Virus genome (UHGV): UHGV-0371280
Length of the DNA: 34,882 nucleotides
Reading direction: 5' to 3' (one strand)
Origin: a virus
Shown here: positions 8,236-32,525 of the stretch, one piece after another
Layout of the letters: every line of letters begins with the position of its first letter
How positions within the stretch are numbered: the stretch's first letter is position 1
Translations under genes and position numbers: made by a program
Notes under the pieces: generated by a model
The model's database searches: none
Told to the model about the DNA's origin: nothing
Seen by the model: only the letters and a program-made list of their open reading frames with translations

Positions 8236-11916
<3,681 letters not shown>

Positions 11917-11942
<26 letters not shown>

Positions 11943-12462
11943 TCAGCAACCCCGGTATCAGTTCATCCAGCGCGGCTGCTTTGTTCATGGCTTTGATGAT
12001 ATCCCGTTTCAGGAAATCAACATGTCGGTTTTCCAGTTCCGGAAAACGCCGCTGCACCGACAGGGGGATCCCGTCGAGAATACTGGCAATTTCACCTGCG
12101 ATCCGCGACAGCACGAAAGTACAGAATGCGGTTTCCACCACTTCAGCGGAGTCTCTGGCATTTTTCAGCTCCTGTGCGTCGGCCTGCGCACGCGTAAGTC
12201 GATGGCGTTCGTACTCAATAGTCCCTGGCTGGAGATCTGTCTCGCTGGCCTGCCGCAGTTCTTCAACTTCCCGGCGCAGCTTTTCGTTCTCAATTTCAGC
12301 ATCCCTTTCGGCATACCATCTTATAACGGCGGCAGAGTCATAAAGCACCTCATTACCCTTGCCACCGCCTCGCAGAACGGGCATTCCCTGTTCCTGCCAG
12401 TTCTGAATGGTACGGATACTCGCACCGAAAATGTCAGCCAGCTGCTTTTTGTTGACTTCCAT
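11917..12462 (-). CDS. Nu1: Terminase small subunit Nu1
   Basis: 181 aa MEVNKKQLADIFGASIRTIQNWQEQGMPVLRGGGKGNEVLYDSAAVIRWYAERDAEIENEKLRREVEELRQ... matches lambda gpNu1. Confidence 0.96.
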
Positions 12463-12680
12463 TGTTCATTCCACGGACAAAAACAGAGAAAGGAAACGAC
12501 AGAGGCCAAAAAGCCCGTTTTCAGCACCTGTCGTTTCCTTTCTTTTCACGGGGTGTTTTAAATAAAAACATTAGGTTACGGCGAAGAAGAACGGAAACGC
12601 CTTAAACCGGAAAATTGTCATAAATAGCGAAAACCCGCGCGCCTTCCGCCCCGTGAGAGCTCAGGTCATCAGAAGGACCC
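12463..12680 (-). other. cos region: cosB closely matching lambda, plus a variant cosN 12-mer at 12640-12651
   Basis: Reverse-complement of 12463-12639 aligns almost base-for-base with the first ~190 nt of lambda (CGCGGGTTTTCGCTATTTATGA.AATTTTCCGGTTTAAGGCGTTTCCGTTCTTCTTCG...GGAAACGACAGGTGCTGAAA...). The position of the cohesive-end 12-mer reads GGGCGGAAGGCG instead of GGGCGGCGACCT. Confidence 0.8.
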
Positions 12681-12799
12681 ACATTAAAGGCAGAATATTC
12701 ACTCTGATATTACGCATTGTTTTGCTTTTGTAGATTCGCAATTTACGGTAAAAATACTTTTGCTATTTCTTCGTACCATAAATGCACAGGAGTATCTTC

Positions 12800-13120
12800 A
12801 TGTCCATAAAGGTATTCAGAAGTGACCTTCAGACTGAGAGTGAATCAGACTATCGTAATTGGCTTGGCGATAATCCAGACGGATATGTTGTCAATGCATT
12901 GAAGCGAACCAGAGGTAAAGGTAATAAATCTGACGAATGCTTTACCAGAATCCATAGAGCATCTTGCAAAACGATTAATCCCTTGAAACGCAAGATCGAT
13001 AAAACAGGATTCACAACTGGAGATTATCAAAAAATATGCTCAACCAACTTCCTCAATGTTGAAAATGAAGCAAAGAAAATGACAGGTCTGACAAGCATCA
13101 TCAAATGTCGATGCATCTAA
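12800..13120 (+). CDS. Hypothetical protein (AT-rich moron on the strand opposite the late genes)
   Basis: 106 aa from ATG 12800 (MSIKVFRSDLQTESESDYRNWLGDNPDGYVVNALKRTRGKGNK...), preceded by CAGGAGTA 6 nt upstream. Noticeably AT-rich compared with the flanking phage genes. No family recognised. Confidence 0.5.
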   Translation: MSIKVFRSDLQTESESDYRNWLGDNPDGYVVNALKRTRGKGNKSDECFTRIHRASCKTINPLKRKIDKTGFTTGDYQKICSTNFLNVENEAKKMTGLTSIIKCRCI

Positions 13121-13500: not shown

Positions 13501-13944
13501 TCATCTTACACACTGCGTGCGAATGTATTGCTGCAAGCCTCGGATCATTTTATCACTGGTTTCAATCCGCTTTCTAAGGGTGAAATAATCCCGTTGAGCG
13601 GTGTCAGTAAGTCTGGGGCTGGTGCCATCATCCACGCCGGAGGCGGCGGTGATTTTATGCATGTCTGGACAGACAGCTTTGACGCGCAGCCACTTACGCC
13701 CAGCAGAAACATCAGCACGAAGACTTTCGATAGTCGCGTTAGCATCAGCAAGCTCCTTTGTGTATCTGGCGTCGAGTTCTGCTACATCACGTTGACGCTT
13801 CTGCATATCAGCGATAGTGGATGCGGCTTTGTCGCGCTGCTCTTTGTAGGCGATGGCGTTATCACGGTAATGATTAACAGCCCATAACAGGCAGACGATG
13901 ATGCAGATAATCAGAGCGGAGATAATCGCGGTTACTCTGCTCAT
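13501..13944 (-). CDS. Rz: Spanin inner-membrane subunit Rz (i-spanin), divergent from lambda Rz
   Basis: From ATG 13944: [39 protein letters not shown]... with N-terminal TM and coiled-coil body. ATGA overlap with the lysozyme stop. C-terminal two-thirds differ from lambda Rz. Confidence 0.85.
13545..13745 (-). CDS. Rz1: Spanin outer-membrane lipoprotein Rz1 (o-spanin), embedded in Rz in the +1 frame
   Basis: From ATG 13745: [56 protein letters not shown]...; lipobox VSGC and proline-rich mature part, wholly inside Rz. Confidence 0.7.
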
Positions 13945-14018
13945 TGCTGCCCCCACAAACAGACTTCACGCTCAATCTCACGACGAGTCATCAGGCCTTT
14001 CCATTGCTTACCGCCAGC
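13828..14018. repeat. Left arm of an imperfect inverted repeat (R 3' end plus Rz 5' end); partner at 14379-14569
   Basis: The first 84 nt of the two Rz genes compared directly show about 5 mismatches, and the final 25 lysozyme codons differ at about 4-5 positions. The arms are in inverted orientation around a ~360 bp spacer (R codons ~21-140). Confidence 0.75.
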
Positions 14019-14375
14019 GTATATCCAGCGACGTAGCTGGTCACATGCGCCTTTGATATCGCCCTGGTTTATTTTGCGAAGAAGCGTCGATGTTCTGAAA
14101 TTGCCAGCACCCACGTTGTAAACGAATGAGTAAAGAGCGCCGCGCGTTGTTTCCGGTATATCGACTTTGATGTACGGGTTAATTTGTCTGGCGACCGTGG
14201 CAAGGTCTTTATTCAAGAGTGTTTTGCATTCTGCTTTGGTATACGTTTTACCGAGCATGATGTCTTTTCCTGTATGCCCGTGACATACAGTCCATACACC
14301 AACAATATCTTTGTATGGTATGTAGCTGACACCTTCCAGACCATCGTTACCACTTGGGCCAGTGATTAACACTGA
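13941..14375 (-). pseudogene. R: Endolysin R (T4-lysozyme fold, phage-21 SAR-endolysin type), 5'-truncated and lacking the N-terminal SAR segment
   Basis: ...[144 protein letters not shown] matches phage 21 R from about residue 22 to the end. Upstream of about 14376 the minus-strand frame is only the antisense of the opposing lysozyme remnant; no ATG or SD. Confidence 0.85.
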
Positions 14376-14378
14376 TGC

Positions 14379-14456
14379 GCTGGCGGTAAGCAATGGAAAG
14401 GTCTCATGACTCGTCGTGAGATTGAGCGTGAAATCTGTTTGTGGGGTCAGCAATGA
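14379..14456 (+). pseudogene. Lysozyme R 3' remnant (last 25 codons plus stop) of a second prophage
   Basis: Plus-strand frame reads [25 protein letters not shown], homologous to the C-terminus of the minus-strand lysozyme, ending in TGA overlapping the Rz ATG. A stop codon lies immediately upstream at 14373-14375. Confidence 0.8.
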
Positions 14457-14569
14457 ACAGAGTAACCGCGATTATCTCCGCTCTGGTTATCTGCATCGTC
14501 GTCTGCCTGTCATGGGGTGTTAATCATTACCGTGATAACGCCATCGCCTACAAAGAACAGCGCGACAAA
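14379..14569. repeat. Right arm of the same inverted repeat (lysozyme 3' remnant plus Rz 5' end)
   Basis: See the left arm at 13828-14018; same evidence. Confidence 0.75.
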
Positions 14570-15054: not shown

Positions 15055-16512
15055 ATGAATACATCTCATGTAAGAGTTGTTACTCATATGTGTGGGTTCC
15101 TGGTTTGGCTCTATAGTCTTTCAATGTTGCCACCAATGGTTGTAGCATTGTTTTATAAAGAAAAAAGCCTGTTCGTTTTCTTTATAACTTTCGTTATATT
15201 TTTTTGCATTGGTGGCGGAGCGTGGTATACAACTAAGAAATCTGGCATTCAATTACGTACCCGTGATGGGTTTATTATAATTGTAATGTTTTGGATTTTG
15301 TTTTCTGTTATTAGTGCATTCCCTTTATGGATTGACTCAGAACTTAATTTAACGTTCATTGATGCTCTGTTTGAAGGGGTTTCTGGAATAACAACAACAG
15401 GAGCAACTGTAATTGATGATGTTAGTTCATTACCTCGGGCATATTTGTACTATCGGTCACAGTTAAATTTTATAGGTGGTTTAGGAGTTATTGTTCTGGC
15501 GGTTGCTGTATTGCCATTATTGGGTATTGGTGGTGCAAAGCTTTATCAGTCAGAAATGCCGGGGCCATTTAAGGATGACAAACTCACTCCCCGCCTGGCC
15601 GATACGTCACGGACACTGTGGATAACTTATTCTTTATTAGGTATTGCTTGTATTGTCTGTTATAGACTTGCAGGAATGCCTTTGTTTGATGCTATTTGTC
15701 ACGGGATTTCCACAGTTTCGCTTGGTGGTTTCTCAACTCATAGCGAGAGTATCGGATATTTTAATAACTATTTGGTTGAGCTGGTGGCTGGTTCTTTTTC
15801 CCTGCTATCGGCTTTCAACTTCACTCTTTGGTATATTGTTATTAGCAGGAAAACGATAAAACCTTTAATCAGAGATATTGAACTTCGTTTCTTTCTGTTA
15901 ATAGCCTTAGGGGTGATCATTGTTACCTCTTTCCAGGTCTGGCATATAGGTATGTATGACTTGCATGGAAGTTTTATTCATTCGTTTTTTCTTGCCAGCT
16001 CCATGCTCACTGATAATGGTTTAGCTACGCAGGATTATGCAAGTTGGCCCACGCACACGATAGTGTTTTTGCTGTTGTCAAGTTTCTTTGGGGGATGTAT
16101 AGGTTCAACTTGTGGTGGAATTAAGTCACTTCGATTTCTTATACTTTTCAAACAAAGCAAACACGAGATAAATCAGCTTTCTCATCCCAGAGCGTTGTTG
16201 AGTGTAAATGTAGGAGGGAAGATAGTTACAGATCGTGTAATGAGGTCTGTATGGAGTTTCTTTTTTCTTTATACTCTCTTCACGGTGTTTTTTATACTGG
16301 TGTTAAATGGTATGGGATATGATTTTCTTACATCATTTGCAACAGTGGCTGCATGTATTAATAATATGGGATTAGGTTTTGGGGCTACTGCATCGTCATT
16401 CGGAGTGCTTAATGACATTGCAAAATGTTTAATGTGCATAGCTATGATTCTTGGTCGCCTTGAAATTTATCCTGTTATTATATTGTTTTCAGGTTTTTTT
16501 TGGCGCTCCTAA
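15055..16512 (+). CDS. trkG: Trk-system potassium uptake membrane protein TrkG (prophage cargo)
   Basis: From ATG 15055: MNTSHVRVVTHMCGFLVWLYSLSMLPPMVVALFYKEKSLFVFFITFVIFFCIGGGAWYTTKKSGIQLRTRDGF..., 485 aa, polytopic. Recognised as Rac-prophage TrkG (TrkH paralogue) from memory. Strongly AT-rich codon usage. Confidence 0.93.
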   Translation: MNTSHVRVVTHMCGFLVWLYSLSMLPPMVVALFYKEKSLFVFFITFVIFFCIGGGAWYTTKKSGIQLRTRDGFIIIVMFWILFSVISAFPLWIDSELNLTFIDALFEGVSGITTTGATVIDDVSSLPRAYLYYRSQLNFIGGLGVIVLAVAVLPLLGIGGAKLYQSEMPGPFKDDKLTPRLADTSRTLWITYSLLGIACIVCYRLAGMPLFDAICHGISTVSLGGFSTHSESIGYFNNYLVELVAGSFSLLSAFNFTLWYIVISRKTIKPLIRDIELRFFLLIALGVIIVTSFQVWHIGMYDLHGSFIHSFFLASSMLTDNGLATQDYASWPTHTIVFLLLSSFFGGCIGSTCGGIKSLRFLILFKQSKHEINQLSHPRALLSVNVGGKIVTDRVMRSVWSFFFLYTLFTVFFILVLNGMGYDFLTSFATVAACINNMGLGFGATASSFGVLNDIAKCLMCIAMILGRLEIYPVIILFSGFFWRS

Positions 16513-29291: not shown

Positions 29292-32200
29292 ATGGCAGAG
29301 CAAACCTCGCGTCTCGCAATAATTATTGATAGCACTGGAGCGAAAAATAATGCTGACAATCTGACCTCCTCATTAGTCAAAATGACGCAGGCTGGGGAAA
29401 CTGCTGCAAATAGCGCAGGGAAAGTGACTAAGGCAACAGAAGATGAGAAGAACGCGCTCGCAAAATTAAAAGCAGCTATTGATCCAGTTGGTGCCGCAAT
29501 TGATACTGTCGGTCGACGCTATTCTGAATTAAAGAAATTTTTCGATAAAGGGCTTATTGATAAAGAAGAATATGAATTTCTTGTCCGTAAACTTAATGAA
29601 ACCACAGAGGAATTGAGCGGGGTTGCGCAAGCGCAGAGAGAAGCCGAGAAGGCCGGAAAACTTGCTGCCGCCCAGCAGGAAGCGCAGGCTCAGGCCTTTC
29701 AAAGAATGCTGGACAAGATCGACCCTCTGGCTGCGGCGCTAAGAAATCTTGAACAACAGCATGATGAACTTAATGCTGCGTTTGCATCCGGGAAAATAAA
29801 TGGTTCTCAGTTTGAGAATTATAGCCGAAAAATACAGGAAACACGGCGAGAGCTTACCGGAGAGGCTCAGGCAGAGCGAGAAGCAGCAAAAGCGCATGAT
29901 GAACAGGTTGTTGCTTTGCAACGTCTGATTGCTCAACTTGATCCTGTCGGAACTGCTTTTAATCGTCTGGTAGAACAACAGAAACAGCTCAATGAAGCAA
30001 AAGCTAAGGGGATGCTTTCTCCTGAAATGTATGAGGAGCTTTCTGGAAAACTTCGTGCTATGCGGAGTGAGCTTGAGGTTACTCAATCACAATTAAGCAA
30101 AACCGGAATGTCGGCAAAACAAACGGCTTTTGCTATGCGCATGTTGCCTGCACAAATGACGGATATTGTTGTTGGGTTGTCCACTGGTCAGTCGCCATTT
30201 ATGGTGTTAATGCAGCAGGGCGGCCAGCTAAAAGATATGTTCGGTGGGATTGGCCCGGCGATCAAAGGGGTAGGTTCTTATGTGCTGGGATTAATTAATC
30301 CTTTTACCCTGGCCGCAGCAGCCGTTGGGGTCTTAGGACTGGCTTACTATAAAGGCTCTCAGGAGCAGGACGAATTTAATAAATCTCTTATTCTTACCGG
30401 AAATCAGTTGGGGACAACCAGCGGGCAATTGGGCGATTTAGCTCAACGTGCCGGGAATGCGGCTGATTCGACAACTGGTGCTGCGGCGGCAGTATTAAAT
30501 CAGCTTGTGCGTTCGGGAAAGGTAGCGAGCAGTTCGCTGGAGCAAGTGACGACAGCGATAGTAAAAACGAGCGAAGTAACAGGAATATCAACCGAACAAC
30601 TGGTTAATGACTTCAATGAAATTGCAAAGGATCCTGTCAGTGCCATATCAAAACTTAATGATCAGTACCATTTTCTGACACTTGCGACTTATAACCAGAT
30701 TAAGGCGCTACAGGATGAAGGGAACCAGCAGGAGGCCGCCCGCATTGCGACAGAAGAATACTCATCCTCAATGATCCAGCGCACCAACCAGATTAAAGAA
30801 AATCTTGGTTATCTTGAGACTGCATGGAAAGCTGTCGCAGACTCCGCAAAATGGGCATGGGATTCCATGCTGGATATTGGCCGTGAGGCCTCCCTTGATC
30901 AAAAAATCTCAGATGTTCTCCGTCAAATTGATGAAATAGAAAAAAATACCCGATCCGGAGTTTTCGGGTTAGGTGGCATTGGAGATGGCGGAGCTCAAAA
31001 TAAAAGGCTGGCACGATTAAAGCAGCAATTGGGCGTACTTCAAGCAGAAAAAATTGCTCAGGACGTACTAAATTCATCAATAAACGATTACAACAAGCGA
31101 CAACAGGAAGGAATTGAACTCAGACAGAGAGCAGATGCCTTTTCAAAACAATATCAGACCCGGGAGCAGCAGAGAGCTAGTGAACTTGCAAAACTGGAAA
31201 AGCTAAAGAATCAGTATTCAAAGGAAGAATATAATAATCTTATCGCTCAAATAAATGAGCGTTATAAAGATCCAAAGCAACCAAAGGCGAAAGATTATTC
31301 TGATGATGCAGCCCAACGAATGATTGATCATCTGAATCAACAGAATGCGTTACTAAGTTCACAAGCTGAGTTGACCGTTAAATTAAGTTCCTCTGAACAG
31401 GAACTGGTTAAGTGGCGTCAGCGGATTGCCGACCTAGAGTCACGACCATCATCGAAATTAACCCAGGATCAGAAATCGCTTCTCTTACACCGGGAAGAAA
31501 TAACCACGTTGATGGAGAAAAATGTTGCGATTGAAAAAAATAACAGGCTAATCAAGGAATCCGCCGAAATAACAGCATGGCGTGATTCATTGCAGGCTTC
31601 GATTGATAATCGTCAGCAGGGGTATGATATTCAGATTGCTGGTTATGGGGTTGGCGGTAAAAATCAGCAACGCCAGCAGGAATTACTGCGGATTGAACAT
31701 GGATATAACAATCAGCGTCTGCAACTTGAACGTGACTATGCAGATAAATCCCGTGGAATGTCAGATCATGTTTTTCAAGAGAAAATGCAGGCTCTGAATG
31801 ATGCTCTGGAACGGGAAAAAGAAATTGTCAGACAGAAAAACGAGCAGCTCGATATTCAGGCAGGAGACTGGGTTAGTGGTGCCTCCCAGGGATTCAATAA
31901 CTGGCTGGATGACACTAAGGATATCAGTGAGCAGATAAAATCAACCACGACTCAGATGTTTGATGGGATGACCGATGCGCTGGGTGATTTTGTCACGACA
32001 GGCAAGGCAAATTTTCGTTCTTTCGCTACTTCCGTGATTTCGGATCTTAGTCGAATAGCATTAAAGGCTTCAATTACTGGGATTTTCGACAGCATTAGTA
32101 ACAGTTCTTCTGGGGGGATTTTAGGAACTATCGGGAGTGCTATTAGTAAATTTATTCCGAATGCAAAGGGCGGTGTTTATGAGTCTCCGTCATTGAGCAC

Positions 32201-32525
32201 GTATTCGAACGGTATTTATGATTCCCCGCAATTTTTTGCTTTTGCAAAAGGGGCTGGTGTTTTTGGTGAGGCTGGACCGGAAGCCATTATGCCATTAACA
32301 CGAACTTCCGATGGTTCTCTTGGTGTCAGAGCTATTAATAGTAAAAGTGGTAATGGAGGCGGAGATATTACCTATGCCCCTGTATACCAAATCACTATTC
32401 AAAATGACGGCCAGAATGGAGAGATTGGCCCTCAGGCAATAAAAGCACTTATGGGGATGGTTGATCAGCGGGTGCAGGGCAATCTGTTAAATATGCGACG
32501 TGATGGGGGAATGTTAAGTGGCTAA
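29292..32525 (+). CDS. Tail tape measure protein (lambda H-like)
   Basis: 1077 aa; conserved block [39 protein letters not shown] parallels lambda [40 protein letters not shown]; C-terminus [35 protein letters not shown] is also H-like; long coiled-coil middle. Confidence 0.93.

What the first reader, a model, noticed from the sequence alone, without database searches (positions are those of the whole stretch)
12640..12651. Variant cosN 12-mer in an otherwise lambda-identical cos and terminase
cosB and the Nu1/A terminase are almost identical to lambda, but the cohesive-end position reads GGGCGGAAGGCG rather than the canonical GGGCGGCGACCT. Six consecutive positions differ in the right half-site, which is unlikely to be sequencing noise. 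Either this cos cannot be nicked by its lambda-type terminase (packaging-dead), or it is an unreported cosN variant.
Basis: partly seen in the sequence, partly recalled or inferred. Interest (0 to 1): 0.5.

Follow-up and report, generated by a model that had tools for sequence, protein, structure and literature searches.

The report
Natural minority cosN allele of lambda-like phages
The odd 12-base "sticky end" is real, but it is a recurring natural version of the lambda packaging cut site that differs only where the cutting enzyme is known not to care, so it is ordinary and not a broken site.

Summary
The 12-mer GGGCGGAAGGCG is present on the minus strand at 12651..12640, exactly where lambda has GGGCGGCGACCT. 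Five of twelve bases differ (bp 7, 8, 9, 10, 12; C11 is kept), not six. The rest is lambda-like:
- cosQ GGGTCCT and both flanking CG dinucleotides are present.
- R3, R2 and R1 are identical to lambda.
- Nu1 and gpA each differ from lambda at 3 residues.

The same 12-mer occurs in two deposited complete phage genomes (PhiR46_1, YDC107_1). It also occurs in 78 IMG/VR contigs, in about 6% of lambda-type cos sites in an unbiased sample, and in roughly 100-200 complete E. coli genomes.

No gpA or Nu1 residue co-varies with the allele. Identical gpA proteins occur with both alleles. The allele pairs with three cosB types.

Published genetics (Feiss et al. 2015, PMC4669245) shows that bp 7-12 of cosN tolerate mutation and vary naturally, while bp 1-6, the flanking CGs and cosQ are conserved. 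This site fits that rule.

Verdict: a functional, pre-existing minority cosN allele, a further member of a known class. cosN is not what would make it packaging-dead. This copy does sit in a lambda-type module cut off inside gene R by a head-to-head junction with a Rac-type prophage.

The parts
12674..12680 (-). cosQ heptamer GGGTCCT (packaging-termination element). It lies 22 nt upstream of cohesive-end bp 1, versus 23 nt in lambda.
   Evidence: Read directly. GGGTCCT was present in all but 3 of 187 lambda-type cos loci examined. The conservation and role of cosQ come from PMC4669245.
12640..12651 (-). cosN cohesive-end 12-mer, variant allele 5'-GGGCGGAAGGCG-3'. bp 1 = 12651 and bp 12 = 12640. 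The inferred top-strand nick is between 12652 and 12651. The inferred bottom-strand nick is between 12640 and 12639.
   Evidence: The nick positions are inferred by homology with lambda and were not measured.
12638..12653 (-). Full 16-bp cosN (the 12-mer plus the two conserved flanking CG dinucleotides). Twofold-symmetric pairs (-1,14), (0,13) and (2,11) are retained, (3,10) and (6,7) are lost, and (4,9) is gained.
   Evidence: Symmetry computed. The 16-bp definition comes from PMC9026076.
12463..12639 (-). cosB, the terminase small-subunit binding region. R3 (lambda bp 50-65, AGGCGTTTCCGTTCTT) is at 12587-12602. R2 (AGAAAGGAAACGACAG) is at 12528-12543. R1 (CTGTCGTTTCCTTTCT) is at 12487-12502. 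The I1 region lies between R3 and R2.
   Evidence: The alignment to lambda is ungapped, with 9/177 mismatches and none in R3, R2 or R1. R3 coordinates are from PMC9026076. R2 and R1 were located here as the 16-bp inverted pair.
11917..12462 (-). Nu1 (TerS), 181 aa
   Evidence: Pfam Phage_Nu1, E = 2.4e-101. 3 aa differences from lambda.
10017..11942 (-). A (TerL, gpA), 641 aa, with ATPase and endonuclease domains
   Evidence: Pfam GpA_ATPase and GpA_nuclease. 3 aa differences from lambda. It differs by one residue (I459V) from gpA of four loci that have canonical cosN.
13501..14374 (-). Rz and a 5'-truncated R lysozyme of the lambda-type module. This is the upstream limit of the module in this window.
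   Evidence: Pfam Phage_lysis and Phage_lysozyme. The junction is at 14374/14375.

Best explanation
This is a functional lambda-type cos site carrying a natural minority allele of cosN.

Proposed mechanism:
1. Nu1 (TerS) dimers bind R3/R2/R1 of cosB. These are identical to lambda and at the same ungapped distance from cosN.
2. That binding anchors one gpA (TerL) protomer, which nicks the bottom strand between bp 12 and 13. This nick is positioned by distance from R3 and is largely indifferent to the sequence at bp 7-12.
3. A second gpA protomer nicks the top strand just left of bp 1. That nick depends on the left half-site (bp 1-6) and the flanking CG, all conserved here.
4. Strand separation gives 12-nt 5' overhangs: GGGCGGAAGGCG on the left end and CGCCTTCCGCCC on the right end. 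These are perfectly complementary to each other and anneal about as strongly as lambda's.
5. cosQ (GGGTCCT) is present for termination.

Shown here: the sequence anatomy, the recurrence of the allele in complete phages and many prophages, and the absence of any terminase co-variation. Taken from the literature: anchoring by R3 and the tolerance of bp 7-12. Inferred: that the nicks fall at the homologous positions in this allele.

Whether this particular copy is ever packaged is a separate matter. Its prophage module is cut off inside gene R.
For: - Same 12-mer in the complete phage genomes PhiR46_1 and YDC107_1. PhiR46_1 is an N15-like phage with telL/telR, ParAB, cI and a full lambda-type head and tail module, and its listed host is ECOR13.
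- 78 IMG/VR contigs carry the exact variant. In a flank-anchored scan blind to the allele, 7 of 120 were variant, 112 canonical and 1 T12G.
- Roughly 100-200 of 4148 matching E. coli records carry it.
- gpA is intact in 32/44 variant loci versus 35/59 canonical loci.
- No gpA or Nu1 residue is fixed between alleles (best association 0.35). Two full-length gpA and four Nu1 sequences occur with both alleles.
- Only bp 7, 8, 9, 10 and 12 are perfectly allele-linked. The same upstream 45-mer occurs with both alleles.
- The allele pairs with three cosB types.
- Duplex dG37 is -17.8 versus -18.2 kcal/mol, with 10/12 GC in both.
- Literature: many bp 7-12 mutations have minimal effect; C11G has no phenotype while G2C costs about 10-fold; N15 and phiD326 differ at bp 9 and 12, and Gifsy-1 at bp 8, 9 and 11; lambda TerL gives equal yields with cosN-lambda and cosN-N15; bp 1-6, the flanking CGs and cosQ are conserved (PMC4669245; PMC9026076).
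- Another right-half allele occurs in an isolated phage: PhiR70_1, GGGCGGAGACCT.
Against: - No direct measurement of termini or cleavage exists for this allele.
- PhiR46_1's viability rests on GenBank metadata (named phage, separate propagation host). I could not find the source paper.
- No naturally tested allele changes as many as five of the six right-half bases, so full efficiency is extrapolated.
- Two symmetric pairs, (3,10) and (6,7), are lost.
- The window's cosQ-cosN spacer is 1 nt shorter than lambda's. The effect of that on termination is unknown.
- This copy lacks S, Q and all early genes on its upstream side.
Confidence: 0.85

Rival explanations
1. The site is packaging-dead. The five changes in the right half-site prevent lambda-type terminase from nicking, so the site is a decaying relic.
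For: Five of the six right-half bases differ and two of lambda's five symmetric base pairs are lost. This copy lies in a truncated prophage module.
Against: The identical allele is kept on at least 30 different upstream backgrounds, with 3 cosB types, next to intact terminase genes and in complete phage genomes. Decay would give scattered variants, not one recurrent haplotype with cosQ, bp 1-6 and the CG flanks all intact. The literature shows that bp 7-12 are tolerant to change (PMC4669245).
Confidence: 0.05
2. A co-evolved specificity switch: variant-cosN phages carry a gpA endonuclease adapted to the new right half-site, forming a new terminase-cosN pair.
For: Mutations in A that extend the endonuclease specificity of lambda terminase have been described (from memory: Arens et al. 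1999, J Bacteriol; not checked here).
Against: No gpA or Nu1 residue separates the allele groups. Identical gpA proteins occur with both alleles. In residues 480-560, 29 of 32 variant loci are identical to a canonical locus. The window's gpA is one conservative change away from gpA of canonical-cosN loci.
Confidence: 0.03
3. Sequencing or assembly artefact at this position.
For: The window does contain one suspicious join 1.7 kb away, at 14374/14375, that no complete E. coli genome shares.
Against: The exact 25-mer spanning the variant recurs in 78 IMG/VR contigs, 2 phage records and many complete genomes. Three genomes match 100% over 141 nt.
Confidence: 0.01
4. The allele is functional and also selected. 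It defines a second cohesive-end compatibility group whose ends cannot anneal with canonical ends, isolating these phages from mixed-cos packaging products.
For: The distribution is almost biallelic, with hardly any intermediates. There are 5 mismatches against the canonical end, leaving only the 6-bp left half (dG about -8 kcal/mol). A 2-base mismatch already lowers yield about 4-fold (PMC4669245). The 22-nt cosQ spacing is exclusive to the variant.
Against: Both ends of a phage chromosome normally derive from the same cos sequence, so no cost or benefit is obvious. The pattern is equally explained by a one-off import from a diverged lineage followed by neutral hitch-hiking and recombination.
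Confidence: 0.06

Closest known systems
Phage lambda cos (cosQ-cosN-cosB with Nu1/A terminase)
   Same: cosQ heptamer; bp 1-6 of the cohesive end; both flanking CG dinucleotides; ungapped cosN-to-R3 distance; R3, R2 and R1 identical; Nu1 and gpA each 3 aa different.
   Different: Cohesive-end bp 7, 8, 9, 10 and 12 (CGACCT becomes AAGGCG). The cosQ-cosN spacer is 22 nt instead of 23 and unrelated in sequence.
Natural right-half cosN variants described by Feiss and co-workers: N15 and phiD326 (bp 9, 12), Gifsy-1 (bp 8, 9, 11), mEp213/LLS (GGGCGGCGCGCT)
   Same: Changes are confined to bp 7-12, with bp 1-6, the CG flanks and cosQ kept (PMC4669245; PMC12315714). N15's end was read here as GGGCGGCGTCCG.
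   Different: Those alleles change 2-3 bases, while this one changes 5. N15 and Gifsy-1 have their own diverged terminases and cosB, whereas this allele sits next to an essentially lambda terminase and cosB.
Escherichia phages PhiR46_1 (PV340565.1) and YDC107_1 (CP025712.1)
   Same: Identical 12-mer and flanks, lambda-type cosB, and Nu1/A head module.
   Different: They are N15-like linear-plasmid prophages (telL/telR, ParAB) with a 23-nt lambda-like cosQ spacer. The window's copy is chromosomal, has a 22-nt spacer, and is most like the O177:H21 and ETEC H10407 prophages.

Membership tests
Lambda-like cos site (12-nt 5' cohesive ends) | [quoted passage not shown] | tested here: met
   Identical to lambda.
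Lambda-like cos site (12-nt 5' cohesive ends) | Conserved CG dinucleotides flanking both nick positions | tested here: met
   The sequence reads ACG|GGGCGGAAGGCG|CGCGGG. The criterion comes from PMC4669245.
Lambda-like cos site (12-nt 5' cohesive ends) | cosQ heptamer GGGTCCT upstream of cosN | tested here: met
   At 12680..12674, with a 22-nt gap versus 23 nt in lambda.
Lambda-like cos site (12-nt 5' cohesive ends) | cosB with R3-I1-R2-R1 at the lambda distance from cosN | tested here: met
   Ungapped alignment from bp 13 to 189, with R3, R2 and R1 identical.
Lambda-like cos site (12-nt 5' cohesive ends) | Adjacent Nu1-type TerS and gpA-type TerL genes | tested here: met
   Pfam Phage_Nu1, GpA_ATPase and GpA_nuclease.
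Lambda-like cos site (12-nt 5' cohesive ends) | Terminase actually makes nicks staggered by 12 bp at this site | not testable with these tools
   This needs virion DNA termini or an in vitro cleavage assay.
Canonical lambda / 21 / phi80 / 434 cohesive-end sequence GGGCGGCGACCT | Identical 12-mer | tested here: not met
   5 of 12 positions differ.
Natural right-half cosN variants (Feiss 2015; Vahanian 2017) | Differences from lambda confined to bp 7-12 | tested here: met
   Only bp 7, 8, 9, 10 and 12 differ, and these are the only perfectly allele-linked positions in 189 loci.
Natural right-half cosN variants (Feiss 2015; Vahanian 2017) | Carried by phages that are viable | tested here: inconclusive
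   PhiR46_1 is deposited as a complete phage genome with a propagation host. No paper or termini data were found.
Natural right-half cosN variants (Feiss 2015; Vahanian 2017) | No terminase specificity change required | tested here: met
   There is no co-varying residue, and identical gpA and Nu1 sequences occur with both alleles. This is sequence association, not an assay.

The most novel reading that the evidence does not exclude
The two discrete alleles (canonical, and AAGGCG at about 5-6%) may be mutually non-annealing cohesive-end compatibility types served by one and the same terminase. The variant would have entered E. coli lambda-type and 21-type phages from a diverged lineage together with a 22-nt cosQ spacer, then persisted because mixed-end chromosomes are inviable. 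On this reading the sticky end itself acts as a small barrier to genetic exchange.
Probability: 0.12. Interest if true: 0.45.

Novelty: new member of a known kind. Interest (0 to 1): 0.15.

Why it matters
It matters little for discovery. The site follows the published rule that the right half of lambda's cohesive end is free to vary.

It has some practical value:
- Tools and annotators that locate cos by the literal string GGGCGGCGACCT will miss about 5% of lambda-type cos sites in E. coli.
- The allele is a natural five-base test of how little the bottom-strand nick depends on sequence.
- The near-absence of intermediates, and the exclusive link to a 22-nt cosQ spacer, give a small handle on how cos modules are exchanged among lambdoid phages.

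Tried and rejected
- **Sequencing error.** Rejected because the 12-mer recurs independently.
- **Co-evolved terminase.** Rejected by per-residue association tests on 67 gpA and 109 Nu1 sequences.
- **Donor lineage with a different cosB.** I scanned IMG/VR for the 12-mer plus CG flanks while excluding the lambda TTTT run. That gave 59 hits, none with cosQ, essentially all chance matches in GC-rich contigs. Only L266/L297 lie upstream of a gpA-family terminase, and that case is unresolved.
- **Degenerate-hexamer scan of GTDB genomes.** This gave mostly chance hits plus lambda contamination. After filtering, 16 sites were canonical and 1 was variant (Escherichia sp. E1V33).
- **Literature search for the 12-mer string.** It returned only irrelevant plant and Streptomyces papers.
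- **Source paper for the PhiR (ECOR-derived) phages.** Four searches did not find it, and a Nature 2026 paper that mentions ECOR13 was not it.
- **Vahanian et al. 2017.** The paper is not held in the library.
- **Exact allele count in E. coli genomes.** This was not possible. BLAST ties between full and partial alignments allow only a bracket of about 107-213 records, taken from the spread ranking.

Full report
**Observation**

The + strand at 12640-12651 reads CGCCTTCCGCCC, so the phage-sense (minus) strand reads 5'-GGGCGGAAGGCG-3'. An ungapped comparison with lambda (PV340536.1) puts this 12-mer exactly at the cohesive-end position. Five positions differ from GGGCGGCGACCT: bp 7, 8, 9, 10 and 12.

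The surroundings are lambda-like:
- cosB bp 13-189 has 9/177 mismatches, none in R3, R2 or R1.
- Nu1 (12462..11917) has 3 amino-acid differences from lambda.
- gpA (11942..10017) has 3 amino-acid differences from lambda.
- Pfam confirms Phage_Nu1, GpA_ATPase and GpA_nuclease.

Background divergence is about 1.8%, so five changes in six adjacent bases is a block difference, not noise.

**Anatomy**

Reading the minus strand:
- cosQ GGGTCCT at 12680..12674.
- A 22-nt spacer ending in ACG.
- The 12-mer at 12651..12640.
- CGCGGGTTTTCGC immediately after it.
- R3 at 12602..12587, R2 at 12543..12528 and R1 at 12502..12487.
- The Nu1 ATG at 12462.

Both CG dinucleotides that flank the expected nick positions are present. 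Of lambda's five twofold-symmetric base pairs in the 16-bp cosN, (-1,14), (0,13) and (2,11) are kept, (3,10) and (6,7) are lost, and (4,9) is gained. Both overhangs have 10/12 GC. Their predicted duplex stabilities are almost equal, at -17.8 versus -18.2 kcal/mol.

**Is it unique?**

It is not unique.
- The same 12-mer with the same flanks occurs in Escherichia phage PhiR46_1 (PV340565.1) and YDC107_1 (CP025712.1).
- PhiR46_1 is a complete N15-like linear-plasmid phage with telL/telR, ParA/ParB, primase, cI, lysis genes and a full lambda-type head and tail module. It was deposited with a propagation host, ECOR13.
- An IMG/VR scan anchored only on the conserved flank GGGTTTTCGCTATTTATGA, and therefore blind to the allele, gave 112 canonical, 7 variant and 1 T12G among 120 loci.
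- An exact-variant scan found 78 IMG/VR contigs.
- Among 5,426 complete E. coli genomes, a 55-nt diagnostic probe ranks roughly 100-200 records as variant and about 1,800 as clearly canonical.
- Three genomes match the window 100% over 141 nt, including its particular upstream flank: O177:H21, DX6 and TW14425.
- PhiR70_1 carries yet another right-half allele, GGGCGGAGACCT. N15 reads GGGCGGCGTCCG.

**Does the terminase co-vary?**

It does not. I extracted 67 full-length gpA sequences (32 variant, 35 other) and 109 Nu1 sequences.
- No residue is fixed between allele groups. The best association is 0.35, at gpA residue 9, the end of the gene nearest cos.
- Two complete gpA sequences and four Nu1 sequences occur with both alleles.
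- In gpA residues 480-560, 29 of 32 variant loci are identical to a canonical locus.
- The window's gpA is one conservative change (I459V) from the gpA of four canonical-cosN loci.
- gpA is intact at least as often next to the variant (32/44) as next to the canonical site (35/59).

**How tightly is the allele delimited?**

- Only bp 7, 8, 9, 10 and 12 are perfectly linked to the allele. Everything else is shuffled.
- The most common canonical upstream 45-mer also occurs with the variant, in 11 loci.
- The variant is found with three cosB types: lambda-type R3; a CATGTCGG type, which occurs in phage IdasGreatGrand and which I recall as 21-like; and a TGGTGG type.
- One residual linkage stands out. 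A 22-nt cosQ-cosN spacer, as in the window, is seen in 28 of 79 variant loci and in 0 of 105 canonical loci. This suggests the allele arrived with a diverged left flank and later recombined onto lambda-like flanks.
- I found no donor lineage with an unrelated cosB.

**What is known**

Feiss et al. 2015 (PMC4669245) state the following:
- Many mutations in bp 7-12 of cosN have minimal effect, while symmetric changes in the left half are severe. G2C costs about 10-fold, and C11G has no phenotype.
- The asymmetry depends on the proximity of cosB.
- N15 and phiD326 differ from lambda at bp 9 and 12, and Gifsy-1 at bp 8, 9 and 11.
- Lambda TerL gives equal yields with cosN-lambda and cosN-N15.
[quoted passage not shown]"

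PMC9026076 adds that TerL endonuclease centres are not highly sequence-specific, and that R3-bound TerS is thought to anchor the TerL that nicks between bp 12 and 13. The 12-mer string is absent from phage papers in the searchable library.

**Mechanism (best explanation, confidence about 0.85)**

1. Nu1 binds the unchanged R sites.
2. An anchored gpA nicks the bottom strand after bp 12, irrespective of the sequence at bp 7-12.
3. A second gpA nicks the top strand before bp 1, using the conserved left half-site.
4. The resulting ends, GGGCGGAAGGCG and CGCCTTCCGCCC, anneal to each other normally.

The anatomy, the recurrence of the allele and the lack of terminase co-variation are shown here. 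Anchoring and right-half tolerance come from the literature. The exact nick positions for this allele are inferred.

**Rivals**

- Dead site: contradicted by conservation of one haplotype on many backgrounds and in complete phages.
- Co-evolved terminase: contradicted.
- Artefact: contradicted by independent recurrence.
- Selected compatibility type: not excluded, but unsupported beyond the near-biallelic pattern.

**This particular copy**

- Upstream of cos, the lambda-type module runs through a small opposite-strand ORF (12782-13120) and Rz (13956..13501) into an R lysozyme gene that stops at about 14374, missing about 21 N-terminal codons.
- At 14375 a Rac-type prophage begins on the other strand. 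It carries the last ~80 nt of rrrD, then Rz, trkG, and a P22-capsid-type morphogenesis cluster running to the end of the window.
- The two R/Rz copies form a 94% inverted repeat.
- None of 5,426 complete E. coli genomes spans this junction.
- The module therefore lacks S, Q and all early genes on this side. Either the prophage is rearranged or defective, or the contig is mis-joined.
- If this copy is not packaged, that would be the reason, not cosN.

**Verdict**

The interpretation as an anomaly does not hold. This is a further member of the known class of right-half cosN variants, already present in public phage genomes. Interest is low.

Noticed in passing
window 13828-14569 (junction at 14374/14375): Head-to-head junction. 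A 5'-truncated lambda-type R lysozyme gene on the minus strand abuts the last ~80 nt of a Rac-type rrrD on the + strand, giving a 195-nt inverted repeat that is 94% complementary. No complete E. coli genome among 5,426 spans the junction. It is either a real foldback rearrangement or a mis-assembly at the repeated R/Rz genes.
   Followed up: partly
window 14375-34882 (+ strand): Second prophage of Rac type: Rz, trkG (about 15055-16512), a ParB-like gene, small and large terminase, portal (DUF4055), P22-type major capsid, tail genes, tape measure (29292-32525), then L and K. It is 99.9% identical to prophages in many E. coli genomes, for example LD26-1.
   Followed up: partly
window 12652-12680, and 79 variant versus 105 canonical loci: The cosQ-to-cosN spacer is 22 nt in the window and in 28 of 79 variant-cosN loci, but 23 nt in all 105 canonical loci with a recognisable cosQ. 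The functional consequence for packaging termination is unknown.
   Followed up: partly
window 12782-13120 (+ strand): A 112-aa ORF with no Pfam match lies between Rz and cos, on the strand opposite to the phage late genes. An annotated hypothetical protein occupies the same place in the O177:H21 prophage (WP_000025002.1). It is a possible moron.
   Followed up: no
L266 1720-1740 and L297 3609-3629 (IMG/VR, about 70% GC): The 20-mer CGGGGCGGAAGGCGCGCGGG (the same 12-mer plus flanks) sits in an intergenic spot 2.8 kb upstream of a gpA-family large terminase, on the same strand. No cosQ is present. It may be a cos site with the same cohesive end in an unrelated high-GC phage, or a chance match.
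   Followed up: partly
L326 (PV340577.1, phage PhiR70_1) 64-75: A further cosN allele, GGGCGGAGACCT (single C7A), in a deposited phage genome with a lambda-like cosB.
   Followed up: no
GTDB loci L225, L231, L233, L237, L239, L240, L242, L247-L249: Canonical lambda cos with lambda cosB appears in assemblies of unrelated taxa, including Raphidiopsis, Oceanobacillus, Aeromicrobium, Leeuwenhoekiella, Archangium, Alicyclobacillus, Marinifilum, Neobacillus and Shewanella. Several lie at contig ends that start exactly at GGGCGG. This is most likely lambda DNA contamination of those assemblies.
   Followed up: no
L151 and L159 (IMG/VR contig 3300045988_113976, 56 kb): One metagenomic viral contig yielded two loci, each with a variant cos, on opposite strands. 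It may hold two cos sites or be an inverted duplication.
   Followed up: no
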